A stretch of DNA of 64,000 nt from contig CAXXXF010000016.1 in NCBI GenBank assembly GCA_963667175.2, forward strand, positions 96,001 through 160,000. Direction: 5' to 3'. Numbering within the stretch: the first letter of the stretch is position 1; each line of letters begins with the position of its first letter. The position numbers and the translations under genes were made by a program. The notes under the pieces were generated by a model that had not been told where the DNA came from, ran no database searches, and saw only the letters and a program-made list of their open reading frames with translations. The stretch comes from Candidatus Latescibacterota bacterium. Its GTDB lineage: Bacteria; Latescibacterota; UBA2968; GCA-2709665. Below are positions 1 through 18,323 of the stretch, piece after piece.

Positions 1-2
1 AC

Positions 3-560
3 GAAGGCTTCGAAATGCCTGTCCGCAGGGTGCGGCGTTATCTCCGTCCGCAGTTGAAAGGCGACAACTGGCAGGAACGCCAGATGCCGTTCTCTTTCGG
101 CAGGTATGAAAACAATTACAGGTGGAAGAAACCGGGCGATGGCGCGCAACCGGCCGTCTGGACGGCCCGATTGCCGCACAGCGGGGATTACGACGTCTAC
201 TATTATTTCCTTCATCCCAGGTTCTCCAGGCGCATGCGTATGGCGTCGGAATTCAGTCTGGCCGTCTGTTACGGCGCCGAGGTGGATACGCTGGCGGTCG
301 AATCGAACAACCTGAAGGCCGGCTGGAACGTCCTGGGACGATACCGGTTCGAGGGCGGAGAACTGGCCCGGGTCGAGTTGTCCGACCGCGCCAACGGCCG
401 CCTCTACGCCGACGCGGTGCGCTGGCGATACGTGGATCCCGACCATCCGGAAGAAGTGTACGAAGAGGATCTGCCAACCTGGAATTTCGGTCGCGGCGGC
501 CGGGGCGGTCGAGGAGGCGGCAGCCGGGGCGGCGGATCGTGGCGTGGGAGAAGCTGGTAA
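3..560 (+). CDS. 5'-truncated protein ending in a golvesin/Xly CBD-like domain with a Gly/Arg-rich tail
   Basis: Frame is open from the window edge. Contains the GDYDVYYY...GWNVLGRYRF...YADAVRW pattern typical of golvesin-like beta-sandwich domains, and a GRGGRGGRGGG tail. Confidence 0.6.
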   Translation, partial: EGFEMPVRRVRRYLRPQLKGDNWQERQMPFSFGRYENNYRWKKPGDGAQPAVWTARLPHSGDYDVYYYFLHPRFSRRMRMASEFSLAVCYGAEVDTLAVESNNLKAGWNVLGRYRFEGGELARVELSDRANGRLYADAVRWRYVDPDHPEEVYEEDLPTWNFGRGGRGGRGGGSRGGGSWRGRSW

Positions 561-594
561 ACCGTTGGACAATAACCCTTTTGCGAGGTGCAAT

Positions 595-1677
595 TTGAAC
601 AGGCGAATCCTGAGCGACTCCTGCATTGCATTCACGGCTGTTGTCGTTGCAGCCGGCTGCGGCGGGCAAACCGAGCAGCGGTCCGTGGACCTGACCGTCC
701 CGGTCACCGTCCAGGCCGTTCGCCTGGACACCATGGAGGCGACGGTGGCGGCCACCGGTACGCTCCGGCCCTCCCGGGAGGCCCGCATACAGACCGAGGT
801 CGACGGTATTCTTCAATATGTCGCGCGGGGCGTCGGAGGACGTCCGAACGATGGAATGCGGGTCACCCGGAACCAGGAGATTGCACGGCTGGTGAACAAG
901 GAGCTTGTCGTAAACGCACGCCTGGATTCCAGGCAACTCGCGCGCGCCACCGCGAAACGAACGCTGCGCGAGCATGAGGTGCTCGTTGAACGAAAGCTGG
1001 GTACGGAGAGAGACCTGGACGAAGCGCGCCGCGCCCTCGCCGAGGCCGAATCCAATTACGAAGACGCGCTCGTTCAGATCGCCAAGACGACGATCCGGAC
1101 GCCAATCAGCGGTTTTCTGACGGGATTGGCCGACATTACCGAGGGTACGCTGGTGGAGGCCCGAACGACCATCGCTACCGTGATGGATTACAGGCAGGTG
1201 CTCGTCGATCTGAAGATTCCAAACGCCTATATCGCAGCCGTTTCACCCGGCCAGGTCGTGCGAGTGGAAAACTATGCATTGCCCGGAAGGCGGTTTCTGG
1301 GAACGATCCAGGTCGTGGACCCGGCCATCGATCCGACCACGCGCACCTTCCGGGTCGTTGGGACCGTGAAGAATCCGAACCGGACGTTGCGTCCGGGCAT
1401 GTTTGTGAAAGCCGAGATCGTCACGGAGTCTCACGAAGACGCGGTGGTGATTCCTCGCCGCTTTGTCCTGACCCGCCAGAATCGCAAAGTGGTGTTCGTG
1501 GAAGAGGAGGGTAGGGCACAGATGCGCGACGTGGAACTGGGTTTGGAGGGCCCCGAGCAGGTCGAGATTCTGGAAGGGCTTGAAGCGGGCGAGCGCCTCA
1601 TTACCAGCAATTACGAGACGCTGCGACCCCGTACCCGCGTGCGTGTAACCGGCGTGGGCGTGGCGGGGCAGCAGTGA
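595..1677 (+). CDS. RND efflux periplasmic adaptor (MFP), probable lipoprotein
   Basis: TTG at 595 after GAGGTG; lipobox-like AAGC; MFP motifs IRTPISG, IDPTTRTF, LRPGMFV, GLEAGERLI. Confidence 0.9.
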   Translation: MNRRILSDSCIAFTAVVVAAGCGGQTEQRSVDLTVPVTVQAVRLDTMEATVAATGTLRPSREARIQTEVDGILQYVARGVGGRPNDGMRVTRNQEIARLVNKELVVNARLDSRQLARATAKRTLREHEVLVERKLGTERDLDEARRALAEAESNYEDALVQIAKTTIRTPISGFLTGLADITEGTLVEARTTIATVMDYRQVLVDLKIPNAYIAAVSPGQVVRVENYALPGRRFLGTIQVVDPAIDPTTRTFRVVGTVKNPNRTLRPGMFVKAEIVTESHEDAVVIPRRFVLTRQNRKVVFVEEEGRAQMRDVELGLEGPEQVEILEGLEAGERLITSNYETLRPRTRVRVTGVGVAGQQ

Positions 1678-1908
1678 AGGCGAAAACCGTGCGCCCGCCG
1701 CCGGGAGCACCCGTCGCAATTCCCTGGTAACTCTTCGCCGCAGACGCAACATCAACCGAAATCATCTGGTGAGTTGCCGTTTGGACCCCTCTGGGGCCCA
1801 GGGACTGCGTGTGGGCCTTCAGGAGGGTTTTTTTCATCTTGATCCGTCATTTTTCGGGGACGTCAATTCGAGTATTTGCGAGCGGATCTCATTCAAAGGG
1901 CCGATACA

Positions 1909-4900
1909 ATGGCATTGCCCGAATATTCGACGAAATATCCGGTAACGGTTGCCATGGCAACGCTTGCCGTCGCGCTCCTGGGCTGGATTTCGCTGGAGCG
2001 CCTGGAGGTGGACCTGCTGCCCGACCTGCGTTCTCCCGTGATTACCGTGGACCTGCGATTTCCGGGCAAAACCCCCAGGGAGATGGAGGAACGATATGCG
2101 CGTCGCCTGGAAGGGGATATCGGCACGGTACGCCACGTCAAACGCGTTCATTCCGTGTCCCGTTCCGGGCAGGCCGTGGTCATCGCGGAATTTGAATGGG
2201 ATGCGGACATGGATTTCGCCCTGCTCGACGTGCAGAAGAAAGTGGCGCGGTACGCTTCGGATCCCGAGATCACGAGTCTGGACGTGACACAGGAAGACCC
2301 CCAGGCGTTGCCGGTGATGCGTCTGGCCGTCTCCGGAGCGGACTGGCAGGACCCGGACGAATTGCTGGGCAGCGCAGAAACCGTCATCCGGCCCAAGCTC
2401 GAGGGGTTGTCCGGGGTGGCTTCGGTGGAAATCGAGGGGGGCGCCGAAAAAGAAATCCGGATCACGCTGGATTCCTATCTCCTTCAAGCATTCGGCGTCA
2501 ATTCGGAGACGGTCGTCTCGCGGATACGCGAGGCCAATTCGGATGTCTCCGGGGGAACGTTGAAAGACGGACAACGTACCTATCTGGTAAAAGGCCTGGG
2601 ACGTCTGACCGACTTGACAGACGTGAACAACCTGGTTGTGGGCGAACGCAGGGGCGAATCTTCGAATGGCGAGGAAGACGCCTCGACCCAGCGCGTTCCC
2701 GTCACGGTGAGCGACGTTGGAACCGTGGGTCTGCTGTATAAGGAAAGGGAAACCATCGTTCGCCTCGACGGCAGGGAGTGCGTCGGGCTTTCCGTTTACA
2801 AGGAAGCCGGCGCGAATACCTCGTCGGTGGTCAACGGGGTTCTCCGGGAACTGGGAAGCCTGGAGGCCGATCTGAACGGCATCCGGTTTACGGTGGTGGA
2901 AAACCAGGCCCGCTTCGTCGAACGCGCGGTAAATGAAGTGGAAGAGGCGGCCGTTCTTGGCGCGTTGCTCGCAGTGGGCGTGCTGCTGGCTGCGCTCCGG
3001 CAGTGGACCGCCACGCTGGTGATCGGACTTGCCATTCCGATTTCCGTTCTGGCCACGTTCACGCTGATGTATTTCCAGGGGCTGACGCTGAACGTCATGA
3101 CCCTCGGCGGCCTGGCGCTGGGCGCCGGCATGCTGGTGGACAACGCCATTGTCGTGATCGAGAACATATACCGGCGCCTCGAGAGAGGAGAAACGGCCGC
3201 AGAGGCCTCCGTCAGAGGCGCCAGTGAGGTCGGGGTCGCGATTCTGGCGTCCACGCTGACCACGGTGTCCGTGTTTCTGCCCATTGTCTACCTTCACGGG
3301 TTGGCCGGTGAACTCTTCAAGGAACAGGCCTGGACGGTCGCGTTCTCACTGGTTTCGTCTCTCGCGGTGGCGATGACCGTGGTGCCCATGTTGACCGCCC
3401 GGCTATTCAGGCGGTATCCTCGACGGTCTGCAGGGATCGCGGGAACGCGGTCCTTCAGACGCTTTCTGGACCGGTCGCTGAACCATAAGGGGCGGACGAT
3501 GGCGGTGCTCGCGGCCTGCCTTGTGGCTGCCTTCTATATGGCCCGGTCCATCCATACGTCTTTTATTCCCACGGAAGACGAGGGTGTGCTCCACGTGGAC
3601 CTCGCGCTGCCGGAGGGCACGAGACTGGAGTCGACAGACAGGGTGGCGAGGCGGGTTGCCGCCATTACGCAGGCGGTTTCCGGAGAGGAAGCGCGGCACA
3701 TCTACCTGCGCGTGGGAACCGATCCGAACCGGTTTGGCGCCGTGGGAGAACCCACGGGCCCGAACAGGGCCGAGATGACGGTCGTGCTGGGCCGACAGGC
3801 GAACCGTCGCGGCGTCTCCGAACTCACCACGGTTCTGGATGCAGCCCTCCTGGAAGTTCCGGACATTAAGGTAAATTATCGACTTCAAAAGGCTGCATTG
3901 GAGGGTCTTATACGAGGCGCAACTGCGCCGGTCCAGGTCGAGGTCAGCGGCGAGAACCTGGAACTGCTTCGGGAACTGACCGCAGATCTGAAACGGCGCA
4001 TGGACGCGTTGTCCACGGTATATAACGTGCGAACCAGCTTTCAGGACGGTCAGCCCGAGGTGGACGTGGTGCTGCGGCCGGACGTCACAGCGGCGTTCGG
4101 ACTGACCTCGCAGAACCTCGTGCGAGAGCTCGAACGCAGGCTGGGCGGAGAGGAAGCCGGAGAACTCTCCAAGGACCAGCGGGCCCGAACGATCCGGGTG
4201 GGTTTCGAGGACGTGGACCTTCGGGAGCTGCAGCACGCGAGAATCGACGGTCCCGACGGGGCAATGCTTACGCTGGGAGATCTCGCCGACCTGCGGGTCG
4301 TTCAGGGCCCCAGGGAAATCCTGCGGGACGGGCAGCGCAGGGTCGGGCGGGTATCCGCTTTCCTGACCGACGGTGTGGTCTTGAGCCAGGCGGCAACACA
4401 GATCAGGCAGGCGGTGCGACAGATGGCCATACCGCACGGATACCAGGTGACCATAACCGGTGAGGAACGGGAGCGGGCCGAATCATTCGGCGGCCTGCAG
4501 TTCGCCCTTCTGCTTTCGGTGGTGCTCGTCTATATGGTCATGGCTTCGCTCTTCGAGTCTCTGCTCCATCCGTTTACCGTCATGCTGACGGTGCCGCTGG
4601 CAGGCATCGGCGTGGTGGTCGCATTCTGGAGTCTGGGAGAAGCGTTTGGCGTGATGGCGTTCATCGGCGCGATCATGCTGGGAGGAATCGCCGTTAACGA
4701 CGCCATCATACTGGTGGACCACATCAATCAGTTGCGGCGCGAGTTGGGCGACGTGAGACAGGCCGTACTTCAGGCCGCGCAGGATCGGATGCGCCCGATC
4801 CTGATGACCAGCGCCACGACGATTCTGGCGTTGTTGCCCATGGCCGTGGGCGTCGGCGAAGGCGCCCGACTGCGTGCCCCGATGGCGGTGGCCGTTATCG

Positions 4901-4992
4901 GCGGTCTGGTCACGTCCACGTTGATGACCCTTGTGGTGATTCCCGTCGTCTACGAACTGATCGAAGGGCTCAGAAGGAGGAGGGCGGCGTGA
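1909..4992 (+). CDS. RND efflux permease (AcrB/CusA-like family)
   Basis: About 1030 aa with the two-repeat TM pattern; GMLVDNAIVVIENI and RMRPILMT motifs. Confidence 0.95.
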   Translation: MALPEYSTKYPVTVAMATLAVALLGWISLERLEVDLLPDLRSPVITVDLRFPGKTPREMEERYARRLEGDIGTVRHVKRVHSVSRSGQAVVIAEFEWDADMDFALLDVQKKVARYASDPEITSLDVTQEDPQALPVMRLAVSGADWQDPDELLGSAETVIRPKLEGLSGVASVEIEGGAEKEIRITLDSYLLQAFGVNSETVVSRIREANSDVSGGTLKDGQRTYLVKGLGRLTDLTDVNNLVVGERRGESSNGEEDASTQRVPVTVSDVGTVGLLYKERETIVRLDGRECVGLSVYKEAGANTSSVVNGVLRELGSLEADLNGIRFTVVENQARFVERAVNEVEEAAVLGALLAVGVLLAALRQWTATLVIGLAIPISVLATFTLMYFQGLTLNVMTLGGLALGAGMLVDNAIVVIENIYRRLERGETAAEASVRGASEVGVAILASTLTTVSVFLPIVYLHGLAGELFKEQAWTVAFSLVSSLAVAMTVVPMLTARLFRRYPRRSAGIAGTRSFRRFLDRSLNHKGRTMAVLAACLVAAFYMARSIHTSFIPTEDEGVLHVDLALPEGTRLESTDRVARRVAAITQAVSGEEARHIYLRVGTDPNRFGAVGEPTGPNRAEMTVVLGRQANRRGVSELTTVLDAALLEVPDIKVNYRLQKAALEGLIRGATAPVQVEVSGENLELLRELTADLKRRMDALSTVYNVRTSFQDGQPEVDVVLRPDVTAAFGLTSQNLVRELERRLGGEEAGELSKDQRARTIRVGFEDVDLRELQHARIDGPDGAMLTLGDLADLRVVQGPREILRDGQRRVGRVSAFLTDGVVLSQAATQIRQAVRQMAIPHGYQVTITGEERERAESFGGLQFALLLSVVLVYMVMASLFESLLHPFTVMLTVPLAGIGVVVAFWSLGEAFGVMAFIGAIMLGGIAVNDAIILVDHINQLRRELGDVRQAVLQAAQDRMRPILMTSATTILALLPMAVGVGEGARLRAPMAVAVIGGLVTSTLMTLVVIPVVYELIEGLRRRRAA

Positions 4993-7900
4993 TTCTCCCC
5001 GATCTTGCGGTCCGGCGACCCGTAACGACGTCGATGTTCTTCGCCGCATTCGCCATATTGGGAGTCGTGTCGTGGACGAGGCTTCCGGTACAGCTCTTTC
5101 CGGAGCTGATCTTTCCGGAGGTGTTTGTCACGCTGTCGCTGCAGGGGGCCTCTCCGGAACAGGTGGAACGAGACCTGCTGGTTCCCGCGGAAGGGGAGAT
5201 CGGCAAGCTGGACGGCGTCCAGGAGATGGAGTCGTTCGCGATGGCCAACAGGGGAGGTATTCGCGTATCCTACGCGCCCGACGTGGATATGAAGTTCGCC
5301 CTGCTTCAACTTCAGAGCAACCTGAACAGATTGCAGCCGACGCTGCCCGAGCGTACTCAGTCCGACGTCAGGAGGTTCGATTCGACGGATCTCAGCAGCA
5401 GCATTATGGAGCTTCACGTGCTCGCCGACTGGGACCTGAACCCGTTGCGGGAGTTCACGGAGGAAAAAATCCGGCCCGAGCTGGAGTCTGTCGACGGTGT
5501 CGTCAACGTGACCGTATTGGGCGGACGTCGCAGCGCCGTGGAAATCGTCCTTGATCCGTTCCTGCTGGAGGCGCATGGTCTTTCGACGGGACAGGTTCGG
5601 GCACGCCTGAACAGCTATAACCGGCGGCGTGAGTACCTGGGGCGCGTATACGAAGGGAATCGGGCCTATTCGGTGAGCATTCAGGGTCAGTTTACGGACC
5701 TGCGTCAGATTCGCGATCTCGTCCTGAACGCGGACGGCACGCTCAGGCTGGGCGACGTTTCCCGGGTGGAATTCGGACTCCAGGAACAGGCCGATCGGCA
5801 CAGAGTCAATGGAAGACCGTCGGTGGGCGTCCGGATCCAGAAGGACGACGAAGCCAATCTGATCGAGGTTGCCGCCTCGGTCGAAGGCGCCATCGGCCGT
5901 CTGAATCGGGACTTCGAGAGCGAGGGCGTGGAACTGGGCGTGAGTTCCTCACAGGCGGATCTGATGACCGGAGCGCTTTCCACCCTGAAGCAGGCGGCCA
6001 TTGCCGGCGCCGTGCTCGGACTGATCGTGCTCTTTCTGTTTCTTCGGAACCTTCGTTTCGTCTCGGTCCTCCTGCTGGCCATTCCGATTTCTCTCCTGAT
6101 GACCTTTAATCTGATGTACCTCGGCGGGCTGTCCGTCAACGTGCTGTCTCTGTGCGGTCTCGCCCTGGCGATGGGGATGCTTGCTGACAACGGCATCGTG
6201 GTGATGGAAAACATCTTCAAGCACTACGAACGGGGTAAATCGCCCGCCGACGCGGCAAGGGACGGTGCGGCCGAGGTCGGGCGCGCCGTGGTTGCGGCAA
6301 CCGCAACCACCGTAACCGCATTCCTGCCGATTCTGTTCATCGAGAGCGACGCGCGGGACCTGCTGCGGGAACTCGCGTTGTCCATGGCCTTTCCGCTCCT
6401 TGCGTCACTGCTGGTGGCCCTGACGCTTGTTCCGGCCCTCGCCGTCCGAGCGTTGAGCCGAGGGGTCCGACAGCCTCCGGACGTTCGCGGGTTGCTCGAA
6501 CGGTATACGCTGCTGCTGAAGACCGCTCTGCGTCACCGCGCATCGGTGGTCCTGTCCGCGGGGGTGGCGCTCGCGCTGACACTCGTGGTGGCGTTCTTCT
6601 ACCTGCTGCAACAGCAGGTGCGCAGGGAGGAGACACGTTTTACGGTTTACGTGAACCTTCCGGAAGGGGCCACGCTGGATGCGACGGACGAGGTCGTGAA
6701 ACAGGTGGAAGCGTCCGTACGGGACGTGCCGGGTCTGGACCGGTTTACGACGTCGGTCCGCGAGGCGGAAGCCGACGTGAATGTATTGCTTGACGGACGT
6801 TCTGACCGGCCCGGCGGCATCTCGCTGGATGAAATCAAAGAGCAACTCGACGACAGACTGCAGAATGTGCAGGGAGGTGTCGTCGGATACGAACCCAGGC
6901 CCCGTGCGGGGAGGGGAGGCCGCGGGCAGGGGATAGGACAACGTCGGAGACGCGGTTCAGGTGGATTCGATCTGACCGGGGCCACGCCGAATGAGCAGGT
7001 TGTGGTTCGAGGGTACGACTTTACGATCCTGACGATGATTGCCAATGACCTGACGTACCGCCTCGAAGAACTGGAGGAGGTGGATGCCAACAGCGTACGC
7101 GCCGACGCCGAACGGAGTTCGCCCGAGGTGCAGGTGATACCCGATGCGGCCGCCCTGTTCGACCGGCGGCTTGGCGCGCAGGAAGTGCTCGCCGCCATGG
7201 GTGACACCCGTTGGGACGGGTTTCGCACAACGGTCCCGTTCCTGCTGCCCGATGCAACCGAGGTGCCCATCGAAGTGCGTACGATCGAAGAGGAGGACCG
7301 CGACCGCTACGGACTGGCGGAATTCAGGCGTTCACGCATACTGAACCGGGACGGGCATTACGTGCCTCTGTCCGAAGTGGCGAGGGTCCGGACGGATGAG
7401 GGACGGAGCAGCCTGTTGCGGACCGACCAGACCCGTCGGATTGTGGTTTCCTACCGGTTTCCTTCGGAGATTCTGGATTCTCAGCCGCGGTTGGATCTCG
7501 CGAGACGGGTCGTGCGAACGACGCTGCAGGACATGGTTCTGCCGGAGGGGTATTCGATCGAAATCATCGAGGCTCACGAGGAGATGATCTACTATTGGAT
7601 GATGGCGGTCGCCGCGGTACTCATCTATATGATCCTGGCGTCGCTGTTTGAGTCTTTCGCCTCTCCGATCATCATTCTGTGTACGCTGCCGCCCGCGGCC
7701 ATCGGCTCCTGCTGGGCGCTGATGATGTCGGGCACGGGCCTCAGCCAGCAGGAGGGTCCCATGGCGCTTCTGGGCTTCATCGTCCTGCTGGGCATTGCGG
7801 TGAACAACGGAATCATCCTGATCGACGCGGTCGGCGTGCTCAGGACTCGATTCGGCTTTCGCCGGGAACGCGCGGTGCTGACCGCGGCGCGGTCGCGTGT

Positions 7901-9701
7901 TCGACCCATTCTGATGACAACGGCCACGACGCTTCTGGGCGTTCTTCCACTGGCGCTCGAATACGGCGGCGATTTTGAAATCTGGCCGCCGTTCGCAATT
8001 ACCGTTCTGGGTGGGCTGTCGGTTTCCATGGTCTCCACGTTGATCCTGATTCCAGTGGTCTACATGGGACTGGATCAGATCGGCGCCTGGCTTGCCGACA
8101 TGGGGGCTATCGCCGTCACGCTGTCGCTGCTGGCGACCGCCGCGGCCGGGTATGGCGTTTATGTGCGGTATGAAAGCGTTTTCTGGGCAACGCTGTCGAT
8201 ATTACCCATCTGGGGCGCGTCACTGACAGCGATATGGATCGTCCTGAAAGTACACCGCGCCCGAGTCGCCGCCCGGCGGGTATCCGGCGCCGTTCATTCC
8301 ATCCAGCTGAGAAATCTTACCAAGATCTACGGTGCGCCCGGGCGGTTTATACGGGAGTGGGCGCGCAACGAGCGCCGGCGAGGGCGGATGATGGAAACCG
8401 GGCCGGGTCCACACGACCGCAAGGCGGTCCGTGAAGCGCTCATCTGGAAGCTGCCGTTGCTCGCGCTGTTGTCGGTCTTCACGACCTATTTCGTGGACGA
8501 AATCTGGATCTATCTGCACGGGCTTGCGCTGGCATCCATGCTTGCGCACGTGGGGAGATGCATTGGAGACCTGAGGGAAAAGCAATTTCCGGCGCCGATC
8601 GCCCGCATTGGCGCCCTGCTGCTCAAAGCCGTGCTGCCATTGACGTTTGTAGGCTATGCGCACTGGCGGCTGAACCTGCTTTCAGTCACGCTTGCCACGT
8701 TCGGGCTGTGGGTCGCCTATCGACTGGTGCGGCGGCTCGCCGACAGGGTACGTTCCGGGGAGATCGATCCCGATGCCGTGTCCGGACGTTTGGCGCGGCC
8801 GCGCCGGTGGAGCTATCGAATGGCCTCGGCCATGCCGCTCGTCGGCGTTCCCCGGCCGGAGTTTCGGGCGCTGGCGGGCGTCAACCTGGAAATCGGCAGG
8901 GGGATGTTCGGACTTCTGGGCCCCAACGGGGCCGGCAAGACCACGTTGATGCGCATTCTCTGCCGGGTACTCGAACCCAGCTACGGCTCCATTCTGATCG
9001 ACGGTCGAAACGTCCTGAACAGGGGATCGATTCACGGTCTGATTGGCTACCTGCCGCAGCACTTCGGCAACTACGGACACCTTTCCGCAACCGAGTATCT
9101 GGAATACCGGGCGCTTCTGGAGGGTTTCAAAGACCGGACAATTCGGGACACCCGGGTGATCGAATCCCTGGAACAGGTCAATTTGATCGAACGCAAAGAC
9201 GATCCGGTCGGCTCGTTTTCAGGCGGTATGAAGCAGCGCCTGGGCATCGCTCAGACCCTTCTGCACACCCCGCTGATCGTGGTGGTGGACGAGCCCACGG
9301 CGGGGCTCGATCCGCTGGAGCGCATCCGGTTCCGCAACCTGCTTGCCAGGTTGAGCCAGGATCGCATTGTCATTTTCTCCACGCACATCGTGGAAGATAT
9401 CTCCGGAAGCTGCAATCGTCTGGCAGTACTGGACCATGGGTGTCTTCTGTATACGGGAACGCCGGAGGAAATGCGGAATCTGGCGACGGGACGGGTGTGG
9501 GACACGGTGGTTTCGGAGCGGCGCTTTTCGGAGATGGAGGACAAACTGAAGCTCATTTCGCATCAACGAACGCCCGGCGGGATCCGGATGCGGTTCCTGT
9601 CAGAACAGGCGCCGGTCGATATCGGCGCGCAGAGTGTGGATCCAACCCTGGAAGACGCGTACCTGTACCTGCTTGGCGGAGGGGAGGGACAGCCGTGCTG
9701 A
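4989..9701 (+). CDS. RND permease fused to extra TM segments and a C-terminal ABC ATPase
   Basis: RND motifs GMLADNGIVVMENI and RVRPILMT. ABC motifs GPNGAGKT, FSGGM, VVVDEPT, STH. One uninterrupted 1570-aa frame overlapping the previous stop (GTGA). Confidence 0.9.
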   Translation: MILPDLAVRRPVTTSMFFAAFAILGVVSWTRLPVQLFPELIFPEVFVTLSLQGASPEQVERDLLVPAEGEIGKLDGVQEMESFAMANRGGIRVSYAPDVDMKFALLQLQSNLNRLQPTLPERTQSDVRRFDSTDLSSSIMELHVLADWDLNPLREFTEEKIRPELESVDGVVNVTVLGGRRSAVEIVLDPFLLEAHGLSTGQVRARLNSYNRRREYLGRVYEGNRAYSVSIQGQFTDLRQIRDLVLNADGTLRLGDVSRVEFGLQEQADRHRVNGRPSVGVRIQKDDEANLIEVAASVEGAIGRLNRDFESEGVELGVSSSQADLMTGALSTLKQAAIAGAVLGLIVLFLFLRNLRFVSVLLLAIPISLLMTFNLMYLGGLSVNVLSLCGLALAMGMLADNGIVVMENIFKHYERGKSPADAARDGAAEVGRAVVAATATTVTAFLPILFIESDARDLLRELALSMAFPLLASLLVALTLVPALAVRALSRGVRQPPDVRGLLERYTLLLKTALRHRASVVLSAGVALALTLVVAFFYLLQQQVRREETRFTVYVNLPEGATLDATDEVVKQVEASVRDVPGLDRFTTSVREAEADVNVLLDGRSDRPGGISLDEIKEQLDDRLQNVQGGVVGYEPRPRAGRGGRGQGIGQRRRRGSGGFDLTGATPNEQVVVRGYDFTILTMIANDLTYRLEELEEVDANSVRADAERSSPEVQVIPDAAALFDRRLGAQEVLAAMGDTRWDGFRTTVPFLLPDATEVPIEVRTIEEEDRDRYGLAEFRRSRILNRDGHYVPLSEVARVRTDEGRSSLLRTDQTRRIVVSYRFPSEILDSQPRLDLARRVVRTTLQDMVLPEGYSIEIIEAHEEMIYYWMMAVAAVLIYMILASLFESFASPIIILCTLPPAAIGSCWALMMSGTGLSQQEGPMALLGFIVLLGIAVNNGIILIDAVGVLRTRFGFRRERAVLTAARSRVRPILMTTATTLLGVLPLALEYGGDFEIWPPFAITVLGGLSVSMVSTLILIPVVYMGLDQIGAWLADMGAIAVTLSLLATAAAGYGVYVRYESVFWATLSILPIWGASLTAIWIVLKVHRARVAARRVSGAVHSIQLRNLTKIYGAPGRFIREWARNERRRGRMMETGPGPHDRKAVREALIWKLPLLALLSVFTTYFVDEIWIYLHGLALASMLAHVGRCIGDLREKQFPAPIARIGALLLKAVLPLTFVGYAHWRLNLLSVTLATFGLWVAYRLVRRLADRVRSGEIDPDAVSGRLARPRRWSYRMASAMPLVGVPRPEFRALAGVNLEIGRGMFGLLGPNGAGKTTLMRILCRVLEPSYGSILIDGRNVLNRGSIHGLIGYLPQHFGNYGHLSATEYLEYRALLEGFKDRTIRDTRVIESLEQVNLIERKDDPVGSFSGGMKQRLGIAQTLLHTPLIVVVDEPTAGLDPLERIRFRNLLARLSQDRIVIFSTHIVEDISGSCNRLAVLDHGCLLYTGTPEEMRNLATGRVWDTVVSERRFSEMEDKLKLISHQRTPGGIRMRFLSEQAPVDIGAQSVDPTLEDAYLYLLGGGEGQPC

Positions 9702-10417
9702 ACTGGCGGGAATTGCTGCTCACCACGTGGCGGCTTTATCGGCTGAGCTGCAGGATCATATTCCACAGGAAGTTGATGTTCATGGGCATCGGCCTTCTCG
9801 TCTATTACGCCGCCATGTACGCGTTCGCGGTGTGGCGCCCCGACGAGGGGTTCGGCGTGTCGCAGGCGCTCAACGTTCTGGTTGAAATCCCCGGTATTGC
9901 GCTTGCCATTTATCTGACGATGGACCTCGTTGCGGGCGAACGAGACCGGAATACACTTGAAACCCTGTTCAGCACAACCTCTACCCACTACAAGATCTGG
10001 ACGATCCGGATGGTGGGGGTGTATCTGGTTCTGGCGGGAACCCTCATGGGAATGACGGTGGTCGCCTATTTCGTCTTCGCCGAACTTCCGATTTTCCGGG
10101 GCGGATTGAACGCCTTTCTGCCGGCATGTCTTGCCGCCGGGCTCACGTTTACCTTCTCCGTTCTCTGTCGAAGCGGCAACGCGGCCGCGATGCTGGCGAC
10201 CGGGGTGATGGTCCTGGCTCTGGTCGTTTCGAAGTCCATGCCCGATTCTCCCTTCGTGCTCTTTCTGGACACGTTTGATCCGCCGGTGGGCATGGAAGAC
10301 ACGCTTTGGGGCGACCGGGTTCTGCTGAACCGTCTGGCCGTCGTGCTGCTGTCGGGCTTGCTGCTGTTTATCGGCCTGCGCAGAATGGAAGCGCGGGAGC
10401 GGCTGGTATCTTCGTAA
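9695..10417 (+). CDS. ABC-2-type transporter permease
   Basis: GTG at 9695 after GGAGGG; about 6 hydrophobic segments; ERDRNTLETLF motif. Confidence 0.8.
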   Translation: MLNWRELLLTTWRLYRLSCRIIFHRKLMFMGIGLLVYYAAMYAFAVWRPDEGFGVSQALNVLVEIPGIALAIYLTMDLVAGERDRNTLETLFSTTSTHYKIWTIRMVGVYLVLAGTLMGMTVVAYFVFAELPIFRGGLNAFLPACLAAGLTFTFSVLCRSGNAAAMLATGVMVLALVVSKSMPDSPFVLFLDTFDPPVGMEDTLWGDRVLLNRLAVVLLSGLLLFIGLRRMEARERLVSS

Positions 10418-10463
10418 CGGCGGGTCTCCTGTGCCACAGACGCGGGACCGACGGGCGCCCATC

Positions 10464-11606
10464 CTATTCCTTTCTTACGTCCAGCCGGACTTTTCGCGGC
10501 GCCACGTTCACGACCGCCAGATCCGTCCCATGCCTGATTGACTCGACGCCGAACTCGAACGTCCTGCGCCCGAACCTGACGTAGCCGGCATCGATGACGA
10601 GCCGAAAGGCGTCCTTGGGCGCGAGCAGAAGGGCGCGTCGGGGACCCTTCACGGTGACGTCTACGGCGGCCGGTCTCACGCCCTCCAGCGCATAGCCGCC
10701 CGGCAGATTCTCCACGCCGACCGCCACTTCATACGTCGCTTCCTGGACCGACGCGCCGGGCACCAGAAATACCCATGCGCCGAACGCCAGCGCGAAGGAG
10801 AGCATCCCCTCCGAGAGATGCCGCGCCAGCCAGCCTCGACCGGCCCTCCGATCGCCGACAACCACGTGTTGAGAGTGCTTCTGCAACCTCGACAGCAGTT
10901 CGTCAGGATCGTCCAGAATCTCAAGTCGACCCTGGCGTGCGACGGCGATGGTGCCGCGCTCCTCGGAAACGACCAGGCAGAGGGCGTCGCTGCGTTCGGT
11001 CAACCCCAGCGCCGCGGCGTGGCGGGTTCCTGCCGGCCCGAGTTCGCTGCGGTTTTCCGACAGCGGCAGATGGACGGCAAAACGCTCCAGCCGGTCGTCC
11101 CTCATCACCAGCGCCCCGTCGTGCCCCGCCGAAGTCGTGCCGAACAGGCTGTCGATGAGCTCCTCGCTGATGGTGGCTTGCAGTACAATCCCACCCTGCA
11201 GGAGCCGGTCGAGCGGTTCCCGTCCGGGAAGGACCACCAGGCCGCCCCGCCGATTTTCCGCCAGCTGAACCATCGCGCGAACCAGTACCGCCAGACTCCC
11301 CCCGCGGGGACGCGATGCCCTTCTGCCCAGGCCCAGCGCTGCAATCTGCTCGAAGAGCCTTCGAAGGTCGTCCTGGAAGACAACGACCAGCAGCACGACG
11401 AGTACGGCAAAGAACCCCTGGAATATCCACGCCGTCAGCTGCAGCTCGAACTGCCGCGCCAGGAGATAGAAAGCGCCCAGAAACGCCAGCCCGACGAGCG
11501 CCATGCGGGCGTGCATCCTCCGGGTCCAGGCCAACAGTCCCCAGAACAGCACGCCCACGACCGCGATGTCCACGACGTCTGAAAATGTAACCTCAAGCAG
11601 CGTCAT
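10464..11606 (-). CDS. cdaA: Membrane diadenylate cyclase (DAC/DisA_N) with a C-terminal YbbR-like domain
   Basis: Three N-terminal TMs, FQDDLRR, HDGA and GTRHAAA motifs, then a TM and VDVTVKGPR. Confidence 0.85.
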   Translation of the reverse strand: MTLLEVTFSDVVDIAVVGVLFWGLLAWTRRMHARMALVGLAFLGAFYLLARQFELQLTAWIFQGFFAVLVVLLVVVFQDDLRRLFEQIAALGLGRRASRPRGGSLAVLVRAMVQLAENRRGGLVVLPGREPLDRLLQGGIVLQATISEELIDSLFGTTSAGHDGALVMRDDRLERFAVHLPLSENRSELGPAGTRHAAALGLTERSDALCLVVSEERGTIAVARQGRLEILDDPDELLSRLQKHSQHVVVGDRRAGRGWLARHLSEGMLSFALAFGAWVFLVPGASVQEATYEVAVGVENLPGGYALEGVRPAAVDVTVKGPRRALLLAPKDAFRLVIDAGYVRFGRRTFEFGVESIRHGTDLAVVNVAPRKVRLDVRKE

Positions 11607-11945
11607 ATTGAAGGTTTTCCGCCTGCTGAATTCGGTCGATTGAGGGCGATGGGGACACCTGACGGCGTGTGAAACCCCGCCAGCCCGAAATATGGGCAAT
11701 CTTTCTCATTTCGTCAAGACCGCCCCTGCCGGTTTGCTTCGCGGCAGATCGACGTCTGCCGGATTCCGAGGCGGCAGGACCGCGGTCCGGTCCGGGCGGC
11801 GCCATGTTCGCCCGTTGAATCGATCCGTGGTTCTCGTCTTTCGTTTGGCCGGTCCGGGGAAAATACCTATATTTGGAGACGTTCAGGGATAGCCGGAAAG
11901 GGCCAGAACCAAATTTCACGCGGTATTCGGACGGAGGCAAGCGAC

Positions 11946-12626
11946 ATGCAGGGTACTCGGGGGCGAATGACCAGACGGGAACTCAGGCAGGACGAATTTG
12001 TCAACAGGATGCTGGCCGCATGGGCTTACGTGGAAGAGAACTACGTCCGCGTGCTCGCCGCTGGCGGGGGGGTGGTGGTCCTCATCCTGCTCGGCATTTT
12101 CATCATGAACCGGATGGACGCCCAGACAAGAGAGGCAGTGGAGGCGGAGGGGCAGATCCGGATCCTGTTGCTCCAGGGTCGGGTAGACGATGCCATCCTG
12201 GAAGCCGAACGTGTCTCGGAGACGTACAGCGGCGAAGCGGCAGCCGGGCGGGCCCTGCAGTTGGCCGGCGGCCTCTATTTCGAAACCGGGAGGCACGTGG
12301 AGGCGAAGGCCGCATTTGAAAGATACCTCCAGGAGTTCGACGCGACGGGGCTCACGGGATACAGCGCCTGGTCCGGTGTTGCCGCCGCCCTGGAAGAACA
12401 GGGCGATTCCGCGGGCGCGGCGGCCAGATACCTGGCGTTCGCCGATGAGTTCGAAGACTCTCCGTTCGCGCCCAATGCGCTCAAGGAAGCGGCCCGATGC
12501 TATCGGGTATCGGGCGATACCGGTCAGGCCAGGATTCTTCTGCAGCGCATTCTGGACCGGTATTCGAGGAGTTCCGTCGTCCGAAGCGCGGAGGAGGAAC
12601 TCAAACAGATGGGTGGTATCGGATGA
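11946..12626 (+). CDS. Membrane-anchored tetratricopeptide repeat protein (YfgM-like)
   Basis: RRELRQDEF N-terminus, one TM, then helical TPR-like repeats. Confidence 0.8.
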   Translation: MQGTRGRMTRRELRQDEFVNRMLAAWAYVEENYVRVLAAGGGVVVLILLGIFIMNRMDAQTREAVEAEGQIRILLLQGRVDDAILEAERVSETYSGEAAAGRALQLAGGLYFETGRHVEAKAAFERYLQEFDATGLTGYSAWSGVAAALEEQGDSAGAAARYLAFADEFEDSPFAPNALKEAARCYRVSGDTGQARILLQRILDRYSRSSVVRSAEEELKQMGGIG

Positions 12627-15600
12627 CCGGCCCGGAACTGAGTCTCACCCGTACGCGCGAATTTCACCCGACCGACCTGGACGAAGAAATCCTGCTGGTC
12701 GTACCGGACGACGTACAAGGGCATGCAGCCGTCGCCCGTGTCGCGGAAGCGGTGGGGGAGGCGGGACGCCCCCCGGAGACGATCCCTCAGAGCCGCTTTC
12801 GGCAGGCGCTGTTCCGGGAAAAGCACGTGATTGCCTTCGGAAATCTGGCAAATAACCGGGCGATTCAACGTCTCTATACCGCCCGGTGTTGTTTTGTGGA
12901 TACCTTCTTCCCGGGCGCACACGGCTACCTGGTCAAATCGATATCAGACCCGTTCGGGTACGGCCGGAATTGCATTGTCGCAGGCGCCAGCTCAACGGAA
13001 GGGTTGGAGGCGGCGCTCGGCGTTTTCAGGGACATTGTGGCCGCGAGTCACGGCCGTCTGGACCGGGTTCACGCCGCATCATTCGACCACGAACTTCCGC
13101 GGTTGCCGGATGCTTCCGAAACCGACCGCATGGTTCAGGACGATTTGAAGATCTGGGGGACGGGGTGGTCTGCGTCGCCGTTCCGGGGCGGCCGGATCCT
13201 GTCCTACCTCTGGCGCCATTACCTGACGGATCATCCGGTCTGGGCGCGAGCGGCGGTGGAAATCCTGAAGGGATCGATAGAGCCGTGGCGAGCGGAATGC
13301 AGTGCGCACCCGGAGGCGTACCACTGTTTCTTCAACCTCCACCTCTACATCCATCTTTGGGACCTGGTGGAAGACAACCCGCTGTTTACCCCGGAAGACC
13401 GGCTGGGGGCGGTGACCATGTTCGGCGAGTTGCTCAGACATCTCATGAAACTCTCGTACGTTTCGGAGGAAGTGAATCCACCGGGTCAAATCCGGCAAAA
13501 TCACACGACCTTTATCGGCCTGAATCTGGCCGTGGGCGGCGATTATATGGTCGGGCGGCACGGGATCGGCGAATTTCAGCACGCAAACGACGTCGCAAAG
13601 CGCATTTTCGAAGGTCAGATGCATAGTTACAAGCCCGATGACGATGGGGGCGTGGGGTACGTCTGGCACGTGCCCCAGGAAACGCTGAGCTATTTTCTGT
13701 ACCGCGGCGACGACCGTTACATCACCGGGGGACACGTGTCGGATCTCTGCAAATTGGCGGTGGTGACAACCGACAATATGCGCAGCGAGTGCGGTTACGG
13801 CGATACCACGGGGTATGCCGGTTTTTCCTCGGTCGGATGGGATGCCCGGCTCTGGCCGCTGATGGTTTCGACGTGGCATCAGCCGGATGCCGCGCACCTT
13901 TGGACGTTGAACTGGCTTGGAGACGGAAAACGGCCTCCCCCGGACAGGGCGCTGCACGGTCTCTATTCGGCCGTGGACTACGTGGACGGCGGATTCGCCA
14001 TGGCGGCGTGTAAGCCGGTCGTACCCCGCGAACTGCTCGGCATCTGCGTGATGGAGTTGCCCGAGCCAGTGCTCGACTGGGTACGACGGTACTCGCCGCA
14101 GGCCCATCATCCGCGTCCGGGGAGAAGGTATTTCGACAAATTGTCCCTGCGGCGCAATTTCGAGCCCGGGGGGGAATACCTGCTGCTGGAAGGACTCGGA
14201 ACGACCTGCCACGGACACGAAGATACCAATGCGATCGTCCGGCTGACCTGGAACGAGAGGGCGTGGCTGGCAGACGGGGATTACATCCGGGCCGCGCCCG
14301 CGTTTCACAATTCCGTCGTGGTCATGCGAGACGGCGAGGGAGTTCTCGAATCGCCCGGAGACGGCGTGGTGATCCCGCCTTTGGCGTCCTTAAACGTCTG
14401 TAGCGACGGCGCGGAACTGGCGATGCTCCGCTCCGAAGCCGCGGGTTACAACGGTGTGGACTGGCAGCGGGAGATATTCTGGCGCAAGGGTCGATATATG
14501 GTCGTCATGGACCGGCTTCGCTGTCGCGAACCGGGAGACTATTATCTACAATGTCTCTGGCGAATGGTGGGGGATCCGGTCCGGGAGGCGGACGGCGTGC
14601 GCATCCGGCCAGGCGGGGGAGGACTTTTATATTCGTAACGCGGACGGCTCCACGCAGGAAATCGTGTCCGGACCCGCACGTCAAGAGCCGATGGGGAAGC
14701 TATCCGCATTCGGACGGAACCATTTCCGTGCTGCATCAGCGAACGGGCGTGCAGCCCTCGAAGCCGGCACGTCGTTCACCTTTATGAATCTGCTCACCCC
14801 GGATGCCTCGGATACGACTGGAACGGGTCGGCCCCGACGCGGTCAGGGTCACGGATGGGGACGACGTCGCGTTGTTGGGCGCGGGAACGTTGGAACAGGA
14901 CGGTCTCGAATCTCTCGGGGAGCATGTTCGCGTGCCTCGCTCCGAGGCAGTGGCGTGCGCTTACAGGGCGTCGAACGGCTGACCGGACGGGAGGTCGAAC
15001 CATCGGAACAGGTTCCGGACCGACCCGAACTGGCGGCGGCGGTCCGGTCCGTACGGGCAGTCCCGGCCGTGACGACCGCGCGCGCGACGCGTCCCTCGGT
15101 TTTCTGGCGGGCTTGGCGCAGCGGTGGTGCCGGGCGTTCCCCCGGCCGATATCCGGGATATTTCCGTCTCGGATGACGGTGAATTGCTGCTGGCCAGCGG
15201 CGGTGACGTCGTGCTGACTGAACGCGGAAAACGGGGGAATCGGTCTGGTTCCGGCAGATTGACGCGGAAGGCGGCGCCAGCCGGGTCCTTGGATCGGATA
15301 TCGACGGAGACGGAAAACCGGAAGTGCTGGTGGGGGACTGAAGACTCAAAATATTGATTGTTCTGGAAGGGAGATACCGGTGACGAACGCTGGCGTCGCG
15401 AGTCTGGCGAATATGTGGAATCGCGGCACGAGGGTCTCGGCCATCGACGTGGCGGACCTGGAGGGAAACGGCGATCTGAACGTGCTTGCCGGTACCGAAG
15501 GGTGGTTTGTGAACGCGTTTGCGCCCGACGGCGAGCTCCTAGATGGGCCGAATGGTTTCGATATCACGCCATCACCGCGCTTGCAAGCCGCGGACGTGGA

Positions 15601-16191: not shown

Positions 16192-16234
16192 ATAATGGCA
16201 GTCACGGTTCACAGTTTCACGAAACCCCTCACAA

Positions 16235-16262
16235 AACCGGTATAAGATATATTATGTAAACT
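16235..16262 (+). other. dif: dif site (XerC/XerD chromosome dimer resolution site)
   Basis: AACCGGTATAA-GATATA-TTATGTAAACT has the 11-6-11 layout. The right arm equals the Bacillus subtilis dif arm TTATGTAAACT as I recall it. It is intergenic between convergent genes where strand bias flips. Confidence 0.85.
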
Positions 16263-16272
16263 TACGGTTGTT

Positions 16273-16989: not shown

Positions 16990-17092
16990 TACTTGAATAT
17001 TCTCATTTTTTTCCTAAATTATTATAGGAAATTTCATTCCTGAATTCAAGGACGATTCACGACGTAACATCGTATCGAGAAGGAAGACTCAA

Positions 17093-18202: not shown

Positions 18203-18323
18203 CGGAACACGAACCAACCCCCCTACCCCGCCGGTTTCGTTGTTCCCGCGCACGCGGCCCTGCGTCTTCAGCCACTTCTCAAGGAAAAAGCCCGGAATCG
18301 CTGAAAGATTCCAGGCTTTCGTC

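What the first reader, a model, noticed from the sequence alone, without database searches (positions are those of the whole stretch)
3..10417. Hybrid RND + ABC export operon with a covalent RND-ATPase fusion
Seen: co-oriented, partly overlapping genes for a golvesin-like-domain protein, an MFP, a standard RND permease, a second RND permease fused to a complete ABC ATPase, and an ABC-2 permease. Known: characterised RND pumps are proton-driven and have no ATPase, while ABC-2 exporters use a separate NBD. Both RND chains here keep the TM4 Asp (LVDN, LADN) and the RPILMT motif. Inference: a single dual-energy machine in which a heteromeric RND is tethered to an ABC transporter, possibly for macromolecule or lipid export. 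I know of no characterised example.
Basis: partly seen in the sequence, partly recalled or inferred. Interest (0 to 1): 0.8.

Follow-up and report, generated by a model that had tools for sequence, protein, structure and literature searches.

The report
RND efflux pump fused to ABC ATPase
A real and widely conserved gene encodes a proton-driven RND efflux pump joined to an ATP-driven ABC transporter motor in one protein, inside a larger export operon whose function nobody has tested.

Summary
Window 4989-9701 is one uninterrupted 1570-aa ORF: a full RND permease (ACR_tran 5-1027), about 260 aa with six extra predicted TM helices, then a complete ABC ATPase. It is not an assembly artefact. Independent contigs bridge the junction without indels. 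The same roughly 1570-aa architecture recurs in 108 of the 120 listed homologues, in 82 of 168 genomes of the window's phylum, and in a 36%-GC Bacteroidales MAG.

It starts 3.7 kb upstream of the window and reads: free ABC ATPase, 1127-aa ABC-2 permease with an inactive M1-peptidase-like domain plus Golvesin_C, (OMF in distant relatives), MFP, RND1, RND2-ABC, small ABC-2 permease.

All ATPase motifs, and the TM4 Asp and TM11 Arg of the fused RND, are invariant in 109/109 sequences. The ATPase's first beta strand appears to be separated from the rest by a 4-TM insertion.

My best reading is a physically coupled ATP-plus-proton trans-envelope exporter built on an MdtBC-like heteromeric RND. Mechanism and substrate are inferred. 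Four paper searches found no description.

The parts
3..560 (+). 3' end of gene B. This is a 1127-aa ABC-2 permease with an M1-peptidase-like pseudo-enzyme domain and a C-terminal Golvesin_C domain. The gene starts 2823 bases before the window (L003 13177..16560). Gene A, a free 301-aa ABC ATPase, lies just upstream of it (L003 12268..13173), outside the window.
   Evidence: Golvesin_C 2e-16. Whole protein: ABC2_membrane_3 1e-6 plus Golvesin_C. Profile matches to M1 aminopeptidases (F3 7.5e-9) and to the xanthan lyase C-terminus. Peptidase_M1 hits in 14 of 18 orthologues. No HExxH or GxMEN in 18/18. Six predicted TMs at the N-terminus.
544..1677 (+). Periplasmic adaptor (MFP), longest ORF. The true start is uncertain. 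A lipobox-like AAGC is seen by eye.
   Evidence: HlyD_D23 3e-25. TIGR01730 RND_mfp 2.3e-57, above its cut-off.
1838..1875 (.). 38-nt copy of a dispersed repeat in the MFP/RND1 intergenic region. Other copies in the genome extend about 100 nt further. It is probably unrelated to the pump.
1876..4992 (+). RND1, the unfused RND permease (likely ATG at 1909). TM4 is VDN, TM10 is VND, TM11 is RPILMT.
   Evidence: ACR_tran 1.7e-223. The motifs are kept in 21/21 orthologues.
4989..8069 (+). RND2, the RND permease part of the fusion (aa 1-1027). TM4 is DN, TM10 is NN, TM11 is RPILMT. It carries a Gly/Arg-rich periplasmic loop at about aa 640-670.
   Evidence: ACR_tran 5-1027, 2.1e-180. Best solved relative is E. 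coli MdtB, 9lyq_B, 1.2e-85. The loop is shown.
8094..8249 (+). Two extra predicted TM helices directly after RND TM12 (aa about 1036-1087).
   Evidence: Hydropathy and reading of alignment A1. The topology is inferred.
8301..8333 (+). Displaced first beta strand and A-loop of the ATPase (IQLRNLTKIYG, aa 1105-1115).
   Evidence: Lys 109/109 and Tyr 106 / Phe 3 of 109. Invariant K85 and Y87 in A1. The free-ATPase profile always starts at position 8-16 on the main domain. In 9 of 32 printed modules, positions 1 to about 20 map to this region, but at non-significant i-E of 3.8-10.
8442..8741 (+). Insertion of four predicted TM helices between beta 1 and beta 2 of the ATPase (aa about 1152-1251).
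   Evidence: The linker profile is found almost only behind RND domains.
8841..9701 (+). ABC ATPase core plus C-terminal domain (aa 1285-1570). Walker A, Q-loop, signature SGGMKQR, Walker B DEPT and H-loop are all intact.
   Evidence: ABC_tran 6.5e-26. All motif residues are 109/109. It is 45% identical to free ATPase A.
9695..10417 (+). Gene F, a small 6-TM ABC-2-like permease (240 aa). Its start overlaps the fusion's stop.
   Evidence: ABC2_membrane_2 2e-4, below the cut-off. Collinear with the TMD of B (hhalign E 4.8e-5, prob 68%). Homologous to the variant locus's permease (E 2.3e-11), which itself passes the Pfam cut-off. Six hydrophobic segments.

Best explanation
This is a conserved composite trans-envelope exporter. 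An MdtBC-like heteromeric RND pump (unfused RND1 plus RND2), with one adaptor and an outer-membrane channel, is covalently tethered through the C-terminus of RND2 to a catalytically competent ABC-2-type ATPase.

That ATPase works with its paralogue A and with the two paralogous ABC-2 permeases. B carries a large, probably periplasmic, inactive M1-peptidase-like domain plus a Golvesin_C domain. F is a minimal permease.

The most likely mechanism is export in series. The ATP-driven ABC unit moves or extracts the substrate across or out of the inner membrane, right beside the RND. The RND then takes it from the outer leaflet or periplasm and expels it through the MFP and OMF using the proton gradient.

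Mixing fused and unfused RND subunits in a trimer would yield one or two tethered ATPase domains instead of three. That would resolve the mismatch between a trimeric RND and a dimeric ABC.

Shown here: the anatomy, its conservation, co-inheritance of the parts, and intact catalytic residues. Inferred: physical assembly, stoichiometry, order of the steps, and substrate.
For: 1. Real fusion. It is a single ORF. Contigs from independent runs bridge 7686-8382, 7898-8798 and 7712-8285 with no gaps, and no indel is listed between 4800 and 10440. A clean 1567-aa ORF exists in a 36%-GC genome.

2. Conservation.
- All 120 listed homologues carry both PF00873 and PF00005, and 108 of them are at least 1480 aa.
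- 82 of 168 genomes of the phylum have the module, nearly all in open frames of at least about 1575 aa; shorter frames occurred on cut contigs or with an internal stop.
- The linker profile gives 145 hits among 1.84 billion representatives. All 23 hits of at least 1500 aa place it at about 1016-1300.

3. Unit of inheritance.
- Gene order is kept in 20 of 20 loci for B, MFP, RND1 and RND2-ABC. A is adjacent in 19 of 20. F is detected by tblastn in 13 of 20 and by profile in one further locus.
- An OMF gene sits inside the operon in distant relatives.
- Flanking genes are conserved in only 1 of 20 loci.
- B and the fusion co-occur: both in 79 genomes, neither in 82, discordant in 7, and all 7 are 58-90% complete.
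- A permuted variant locus holds the same seven component types: MFP, A, F, RND1, B, RND-NBD, OMF.

4. Both engines are under selection. In 109/109 fusions the TM4 Asp, the TM11 Arg and Thr, Walker A Lys, Q-loop Gln, signature, Walker B Asp-Glu and H-loop His are invariant.

5. Subfunctionalised RND pair. RND1 keeps a TM10 Asp in 21/21. The fused RND2 has Asn there in 21/21 loci and in 102 of 109 fusions. The best solved relative is MdtB.

6. Established knowledge.
[quoted passage not shown] HAE-1 heterotrimers such as MdtBC exist. ABC units are dimeric (PMC8277102, passages read).
- MdtBC has B2C1 stoichiometry (PMC7015380, Introduction passage).
Against:
- Stand-alone A-B and A-B-B' loci without RND or F exist. 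The A/B module can therefore probably work alone and may be functionally separate.
- Neither RND has the AcrB-type Asp-Asp/Lys relay, so proton coupling of this subfamily is assumed, not shown.
- Here the OMF is not in the operon; six OEP genes lie elsewhere.
- No substrate clue was found. Flanks are not conserved and no riboswitch was seen.
- The system is rare in Bacteroidota, 4 of 401 sampled genomes, so it is accessory, not core.
- The displaced beta 1 strand is supported by conservation, but only by non-significant HMM mini-domains.
Confidence: 0.5

Rival explanations
1. ATP-powered or ATP-gated RND. Dimerisation of the tethered ATPase domain acts directly on RND2, through the six extra helices. 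It either drives or licenses the RND transport cycle. The ABC-2 permeases are only a platform, and the proton gradient is secondary or unused in the fused subunit.
For: The fused RND2 lacks any charged TM10 residue in 102 of 109 sequences, while RND1 keeps an Asp there in 21/21. The tether consists of membrane helices conserved as a family-specific module. The ATPase motifs are invariant.
Against: The TM4 Asp and TM11 Arg/Thr of RND2 are invariant in 109/109, which is unexpected if protonation were dispensable. A cognate ABC-2 permease F always follows the fusion. The variant fusion has no TM tether at all, so helix-mediated force transmission is not a general feature.
Confidence: 0.2
2. Co-localisation only. 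The fusion is a scaffold that fixes expression ratio and location of two transporters. They act on related substrates but without direct hand-off or mechanical coupling.
For: A-B modules occur alone. Gene adjacency of the ABC parts is permuted in the variant. Fusions of co-operating but independent proteins are common (general knowledge).
Against: The fused state is nearly universal. All 23 full-length hits to the linker profile have it, and open frames of about 1575-1600 aa occur across two phyla. A mere convenience fusion would be expected to split often. The specialised linker and the split ATPase are conserved.
Confidence: 0.15
3. Periplasmic extractor model. The ABC unit does not carry substrate across the inner membrane. 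Like MacB or LptB2FG, it uses ATP to move the large ectodomain of B (M1-like plus Golvesin_C). That domain captures a peptide- or glycan-bearing substrate in the periplasm or outer leaflet and loads it into the RND/MFP/OMF duct.
For: B has a roughly 880-aa domain after its TMD with an inactive M1 fold and a Golvesin_C domain that matches a xanthan lyase C-terminus. A weakly hydrophobic seventh segment after a positive cluster would place that domain outside the cytoplasm (sequence, read by eye). B co-occurs with the fusion in 79 genomes.
Against: The location of the B domain is not established. F has no ectodomain. No FtsX or MacB periplasmic domain or beta-jellyroll was detected.
Confidence: 0.15
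4. Artefact. A frameshift, misassembly or chance open frame in GC-rich DNA joins two separate genes.
For: The window is 60-64% GC and full of long spurious ORFs. A few short forms sit on long contigs and a few relatives show an internal stop.
Against:: the same frame is kept in over 100 sequence clusters, in a 36%-GC genome, and in independent contigs without indels.
Confidence: 0.01

Closest known systems
MdtABC-TolC / MuxABC-OpmB (heteromeric RND pumps)
   Same: Two paralogous RND genes lie in tandem behind a single adaptor gene. E. coli MdtB is the best solved relative of RND2. The two subunits differ in their relay residues.
   Different: Not orthologous: NCBIfam MdtB and MdtC scores are far below their cut-offs. 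The relay is Asp-Asn/Asn-Asp or Asn-Asn instead of Asp-Asp/Lys. One subunit carries six extra TMs and an ABC ATPase. The operon also holds ABC-2 components.
AcrAB-TolC working in synergy with single-component inner-membrane transporters
   Same: [quoted passage not shown]
   Different: There the partners are separate and uncoupled. Here they are one polypeptide and one operon, and the first step would be ATP-driven.
ABC-2 (type V-like) exporters of the DrrAB / GldAFG / NodIJ group
   Same: The ATPase domains score best against the DrrA, GldA and NodI models. The permeases are separate 6-TM ABC-2 proteins.
   Different: Scores are below every equivalog cut-off. One ATPase is fused behind an RND and is interrupted by a 4-TM insertion. 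One permease carries an M1-like plus Golvesin_C domain.
MacAB-TolC (ABC-driven tripartite pump)
   Same: An ABC ATPase is combined with an MFP and an OMF in a trans-envelope system.
   Different: There is no FtsX-type 4-TM permease or MacB periplasmic domain. Here the duct-forming inner-membrane partner is an RND.
CFTR NBD1 regulatory insertion (recalled, not tested here)
   Same: An insertion is tolerated between the first and second beta strands of an ABC ATPase domain.
   Different: The CFTR insertion is a short soluble segment. Here it is four predicted membrane helices, or about 50 soluble residues in the variant.

Membership tests
RND / HAE-1-type tripartite efflux pump | Full-length 12-TM ACR_tran permease | tested here: met
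   ACR_tran covers 17-1029 of RND1 and 5-1027 of RND2.
RND / HAE-1-type tripartite efflux pump | Cognate periplasmic adaptor encoded alongside | tested here: met
   RND_mfp 194 bits against a cut-off of 94.9.
RND / HAE-1-type tripartite efflux pump | Outer-membrane factor partner | tested here: inconclusive
   None in this operon; six OEP genes lie elsewhere in the genome. An OMF sits inside the operon in distant relatives.
RND / HAE-1-type tripartite efflux pump | AcrB-type proton relay (TM4 Asp-Asp, TM10 Lys, TM11 Arg) | tested here: not met
   TM4 is Asp-Asn in both. TM10 is Asn-Asp in RND1 and Asn-Asn in RND2. Only the TM11 Arg is kept.
RND / HAE-1-type tripartite efflux pump | NCBIfam curated cut-off of a named RND permease model | tested here: not met
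   Best is RND_permease_2, at 623 and 518 bits against a cut-off of 1250.
MdtBC-type heteromeric RND | Two RND paralogues in tandem with one adaptor | tested here: met
   Seen in the window and in the 24 related loci examined that hold the main architecture: 20, L114, L115 and L035, L120.
MdtBC-type heteromeric RND | Mixed trimer of defined stoichiometry | not testable with these tools
B2C1 is known for MdtBC (PMC7015380).
MdtBC-type heteromeric RND | Orthology to MdtB or MdtC | tested here: not met
   401 and 374 bits against cut-offs of 1774 and 1584.
ABC-2-type exporter (DrrAB/GldAFG-like) | ATPase with Walker A, Q-loop, signature, Walker B plus Glu, and H-loop | tested here: met
   Invariant in 109/109 fusions. 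Free ATPase A also has them (sequence, read by eye).
ABC-2-type exporter (DrrAB/GldAFG-like) | Separate 6-TM ABC-2 permease | tested here: met
   F alone is below the Pfam cut-off. It aligns with the TMD of B and with a permease that passes ABC2_membrane_2. It has six hydrophobic segments.
ABC-2-type exporter (DrrAB/GldAFG-like) | Equivalog-level match to DrrA or GldA | tested here: not met
   168.8 against 312 bits and 161.3 against 402.6 bits for the fused ATPase.
MacAB-type ABC tripartite pump | FtsX-type permease with periplasmic core domain fused to the ATPase | tested here: not met
   No such Pfam or NCBIfam hit in any of the six proteins.
M1 aminopeptidase (domain of B) | HExxH-E zinc site and GxMEN motif | tested here: not met
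   0 of 18 orthologues have HExxH or GxMEN. One of the 18 rows, L021, was partly out of frame.

The most novel reading that the evidence does not exclude
This is a new class of hybrid primary/secondary transporter. ATP hydrolysis at ATPase domains tethered to a heteromeric RND trimer, and proton flux through that trimer, are mechanically coupled in one trans-envelope complex. Substrate is taken from the cytoplasm or inner leaflet and delivered outside the cell without a free periplasmic intermediate. The mixed RND trimer exists to reconcile three-fold RND symmetry with two-fold ABC symmetry.
Probability: 0.35. Interest if true: 0.9.

Novelty: new variant of a known kind. Interest (0 to 1): 0.75.

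Why it matters
RND pumps and ABC transporters are the textbook examples of proton-driven and ATP-driven export, and they are treated as separate machines. A conserved natural fusion of the two gives a direct handle on three questions:

- How substrates that start in the cytoplasm reach RND pumps.
- Whether two energy sources can be combined in one pump.
- How a trimeric and a dimeric machine can be matched.

The fusion sits in a seven-part operon that also holds an inactive peptidase-like ectodomain. The family is present in about half of the sampled genomes of the window's phylum. It occurs sporadically in MAGs labelled Bacteroidales, Acidobacteriota, KSB1, Calditrichota and Spirochaetales. 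Everywhere it carries only generic automatic names, so a functional assignment would re-annotate many genomes.

Tried and rejected
- **Triple fusion RND1-RND2-ABC.** Open frames of 2326 and 2612 aa suggested it. It was rejected: RND1 and RND2 lie in different frames, and the long frames come from 73% GC.
- **Core Bacteroidota envelope function** (for example surface lipoprotein export). Rejected: only 4 of 401 sampled genomes carry the module.
- **Regulatory RNA or terminator as a substrate clue.** Three sub-threshold Rfam matches only, and no terminator-like site after F.
- **Conserved neighbours as a substrate clue.** Flanking genes recur in 1 of 20 loci, the one from the same genus.
- **The search for related loci.** The linker alignment had no stretch conserved enough. 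With the module alignment, the scan was driven by Walker A and H-loop patterns. 78 of its 80 loci were ordinary ABC ATPases; only L034 and L035 were relevant.
- **Linker helices as a cryptic ABC-2 domain.** No similarity to F (hhalign prob 0.2%).
- **Genuinely split forms.** A few short homologues sit on long contigs and one cluster has members of 91-732 aa.
- **RNA-library contigs.** Contigs from runs X18 and X19 cover parts of the gene at 90-99% identity. This is not proof of transcription. Uncovered bins were not interpreted.
- **Golvesin literature.** The listing showed only Dictyostelium cell-biology papers and I opened none.

Full report
**Observation**

The + strand of window 1-10417 carries five co-oriented genes:
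- 3..560, open at the 5' end: Golvesin_C, E 2e-16.
- 544..1677: a periplasmic adaptor (HlyD_D23 3e-25; RND_mfp 2.3e-57).
- 1876..4992: an RND permease, called RND1 here (ACR_tran 1.7e-223). Its likely ATG is at 1909.
- 4989..9701: a 1570-aa ORF with ACR_tran over residues 5-1027 (2.1e-180) and ABC_tran over 1297-1438 (6.5e-26).
- 9695..10417: a 240-aa hydrophobic protein with a sub-threshold ABC-2 hit (21.1 bits against 27.2).

The RND1 stop and the fusion's start overlap as GTGA behind a GGAGG-like stretch. The fusion's stop overlaps the GTG of the small permease. The next gene, 10464..11699, lies on the other strand and is a CdaA-type diadenylate cyclase. The 619-aa ORF 8558..10417 is only a GC-driven upstream extension of the small permease's frame.

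**The fusion is not an artefact**

- Contigs from independent public runs bridge the RND/linker junction at about 8069 without gaps: 7686-8382, 7898-8798, and 7712-8285 in an RNA library. No insertion or deletion is listed between 4800 and 10440.
- A search with residues 1030-1570 listed 120 clusters, all carrying both PF00873 and PF00005. They are 38-95% identical to the query over that region, and 108 of them are at least 1480 aa.
- In whole genomes the C-terminal module was found in 37 of 41 close relatives including the window's genome, and in 82 of 168 genomes of the phylum. Nearly all sit in open frames of about 1575-1600 aa. The few exceptions were cut contigs or showed an internal stop.
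- A Bacteroidales MAG with 36% GC has a clean 1567-aa ORF of the same build. Chance open frames are not an issue at that GC.
- A profile of the linker alone found only 145 representatives among 1.84 billion. All 23 of at least 1500 aa carry it at about 1016-1300, directly behind an RND domain. The rest are short fragments.

**The unit is larger than the finding**

The window is G000:C16:96001-160000. Two more genes of the unit lie upstream:
- Gene A is a free 301-aa ABC ATPase. It ends three bases before gene B.
- Gene B is 1127 aa, and the window's first ORF is its tail. B has six predicted N-terminal helices of the ABC-2 type. These are followed by a region that matches M1 aminopeptidases in profile searches (tricorn factor F3, 7.5e-9; Peptidase_M1 hits in 14 of 18 orthologues). 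It has no HExxH or GxMEN in 18 of 18 orthologues, though one of those rows was partly out of frame. The protein ends with Golvesin_C, which also matches the C-terminus of a xanthan lyase.

tblastn of the parts against 20 loci from 20 genomes, 94% down to about 40% identical in the module, gave this picture:
- The order B, MFP, RND1, RND2-linker-ATPase is kept in 20 of 20.
- A is adjacent in 19 of 20.
- F is detected in 13 of 20. In one of the seven misses that I checked, a profile found F with E 3e-38.

In the more distant loci a TolC-type OMF gene sits between B and the MFP (OEP 1e-48 and 3e-37). The Bacteroidales locus has all seven genes in a row. The window's genome has six OEP genes, none of them at this locus. 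Flanking genes are shared with only 1 of 20 loci, so the unit runs from A to F.

Within the phylum, B and the fusion are co-inherited. Both are present in 79 genomes and neither in 82. Three genomes have only the fusion and four only B, and all seven are 58-90% complete.

**Anatomy of the fused protein**

Behind RND TM12 come, in order:
1. Two predicted helices.
2. A cytoplasmic segment with the motif IQLRNLTKIYG.
3. Four more predicted helices.
4. The ATPase core, starting at its second strand.

In 109 full-length fusions the Lys of that motif is invariant, and the Tyr is Tyr in 106 and Phe in 3. This fits the first strand and the A-loop aromatic of an ABC ATPase.

A profile of 19 free A-type ATPases always begins at its position 8-16 on the main domain. 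In 9 of the 32 modules whose rows I printed, positions 1 to about 20 mapped to the motif region. Those scores are not significant on their own (i-E 3.8-10). I therefore infer, without proof, that the ATPase is split by a 4-TM insertion between its first two strands.

The even number of helices keeps the ATPase in the cytoplasm. The linker shows no similarity to the small permease.

**State of the two engines**

*ATPase.* Walker A Lys, Q-loop Gln, signature Ser and Gly, Walker B Asp, the catalytic Glu and the H-loop His are each 109/109.

*RND.* The alignment with E. coli MdtB, the best solved relative (1.2e-85), shows that neither RND has the Asp-Asp/Lys relay.
- RND1 has TM4 Asp-Asn, TM10 Asn-Asp and TM11 Arg in 21 of 21 orthologues.
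- The fused RND2 has TM4 Asp-Asn (109/109) and TM11 Arg and Thr (109/109). At TM10 the first Asn is 109/109, and the next residue is Asn in 102 and Asp in 7.

The two RNDs are thus consistently different, as expected for subunits with divided roles. The fused one still keeps an invariant membrane Asp and Arg.

**The ABC parts are two paralogous pairs**

- The fused ATPase and A are 41-49% identical to each other in every locus. Orthologues of either are more alike than that, so the duplication is old.
- F aligns end to end with the transmembrane domain of B (217 columns, E 4.8e-5, probability 68%).

A variant locus (L119) holds the same component types in another order: MFP, A, F, RND1, B (922 aa), RND-ATPase (1437 aa), OMF. 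Its free ATPase is closer to A and its fused one closer to the window's fused ATPase. Its B and F are recognised by profile (E 5e-28 and 2.3e-11). Its fusion has no membrane linker and carries only about 50 soluble residues between the first two strands.

The adjacency A|B and E|F of the main form becomes A|F and B|E there. This fits one integrated ABC unit made of A, the fused ATPase, B and F.

Against that reading, stand-alone A-B and A-B-B' loci without RND or F exist. The A/B pair can therefore probably act alone.

Stoichiometry stays open between two arrangements:
- Two homodimeric modules, with two fused subunits per RND trimer.
- One heteromeric module, with one fused subunit per trimer.

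Either way, a mixed RND trimer would avoid three tethered ATPase domains.

**Mechanism**

Established knowledge:
- RND heterotrimers such as MdtBC exist.
- ABC units are dimers (PMC8277102, passages). MdtBC is B2C1 (PMC7015380, Introduction passage).
- The preprint on MdtB cryo-EM (10.1101/2025.04.25.650598) was seen only in a search listing.

Combined with the anatomy, the best reading is export in series within one assembly. The ABC unit takes an ATP-driven step across or out of the inner membrane. The heteromeric RND then expels the substrate by proton drive through the MFP and OMF.

The inactive M1-like domain plus Golvesin_C of B suggests a peptide- or glycan-bearing substrate, or a docking role. 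That point is speculation.

Rivals are a directly ATP-driven or ATP-gated RND, a mere scaffold fusion, and a MacB/Lpt-like periplasmic extractor that uses B's ectodomain.

**Distribution and names**

Named relatives are MAGs labelled Latescibacterota, Gemmatimonadota, Acidobacteriota, KSB1, Calditrichota, Bacteroidales/Odoribacter, Spirochaetales and Krumholzibacteriia. All carry generic names such as 'efflux RND transporter permease subunit' or 'ATP-binding cassette domain-containing protein'.

In a sample of Bacteroidota the module is rare: 4 of 401 genomes, counting the query genome itself. Runs holding near-identical DNA are mainly sponge, coral and marine metagenomes.

**Novelty**

Four full-text searches found nothing on such a fusion:
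- RND, ABC, fusion protein and Gemmatimonadetes.
- RND-ABC and ABC-RND phrases.
- 'fused RND' and 'AcrB fused to' phrases.
- ACR_tran with ABC_tran.

The library lacks most subscription journals, and supplements were closed. NCBIfam has no model that reaches its cut-off for any of the six proteins except the generic RND_mfp.

I class it as a new variant built from known kinds, with a substantial chance that it works as a new hybrid class.

**Limits**

There is no structure, no complex model and no expression proof.

Noticed in passing
L119 (G169:C30:7000-26999), minus strand 4652..19997: A permuted variant of the system: MFP, free ATPase, small ABC-2 permease, RND, B-like protein (922 aa; no Golvesin_C hit in Pfam), then a 1437-aa RND-ATPase fusion, then OMF. 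The fusion has no membrane linker and only about 50 soluble residues between beta 1 and beta 2. It appears to be a second architecture of RND-ABC fusion.
   Followed up: partly
L121 (G027:C1:1454000-1473999) and L123 (G058:C27:12000-27332): Stand-alone copies of the A-B pair exist, and one ATPase is followed by two tandem B paralogues. No RND or F lies nearby. The ABC-2/M1-like/Golvesin_C permease family therefore also exists on its own. Several genomes show 2-4 matches to the B profile, some of them fragments.
   Followed up: partly
window 1838-1875: This 38-nt stretch in the MFP/RND1 intergenic region recurs at least 8 times elsewhere in the genome at 91-94% identity. The other copies share a further roughly 100 nt with each other, which looks like the end of a dispersed mobile or repeat element. 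Only a stub is present here.
   Followed up: partly
window 6900-7000 (RND2 aa about 640-670) and window 480-560 (C-terminal tail of B): Gly/Arg-rich low-complexity stretches. A Gly-rich loop of variable length sits in the periplasmic part of RND2 in all 21 orthologues aligned. B ends in an RGG-like tail, and one relative of B has a long poly-Gly insert.
   Followed up: no
window 10464-11699 (- strand): A CdaA-type diadenylate cyclase (DAC 1.2e-31 plus CdaA_N) converges on the end of the operon. It is conserved next to the operon only within the same genus.
   Followed up: no
L003 4130-12167 (upstream of the window): Upstream, on the same strand, lie a DMFA2_C/Laminin_G_3 protein, a TPP enzyme, a DAO oxidoreductase and a 415-aa protein with a RidA-like domain. 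Of these, only the RidA-like and DAO genes were checked against the 20 loci, and they recur only in the same-genus locus.
   Followed up: partly
(G105, G059, G060, G081; P0137, P0142): A few relatives show an internal stop or short gene calls on long contigs. These could be pseudogenes, real split forms or long-read indel errors.
   Followed up: no
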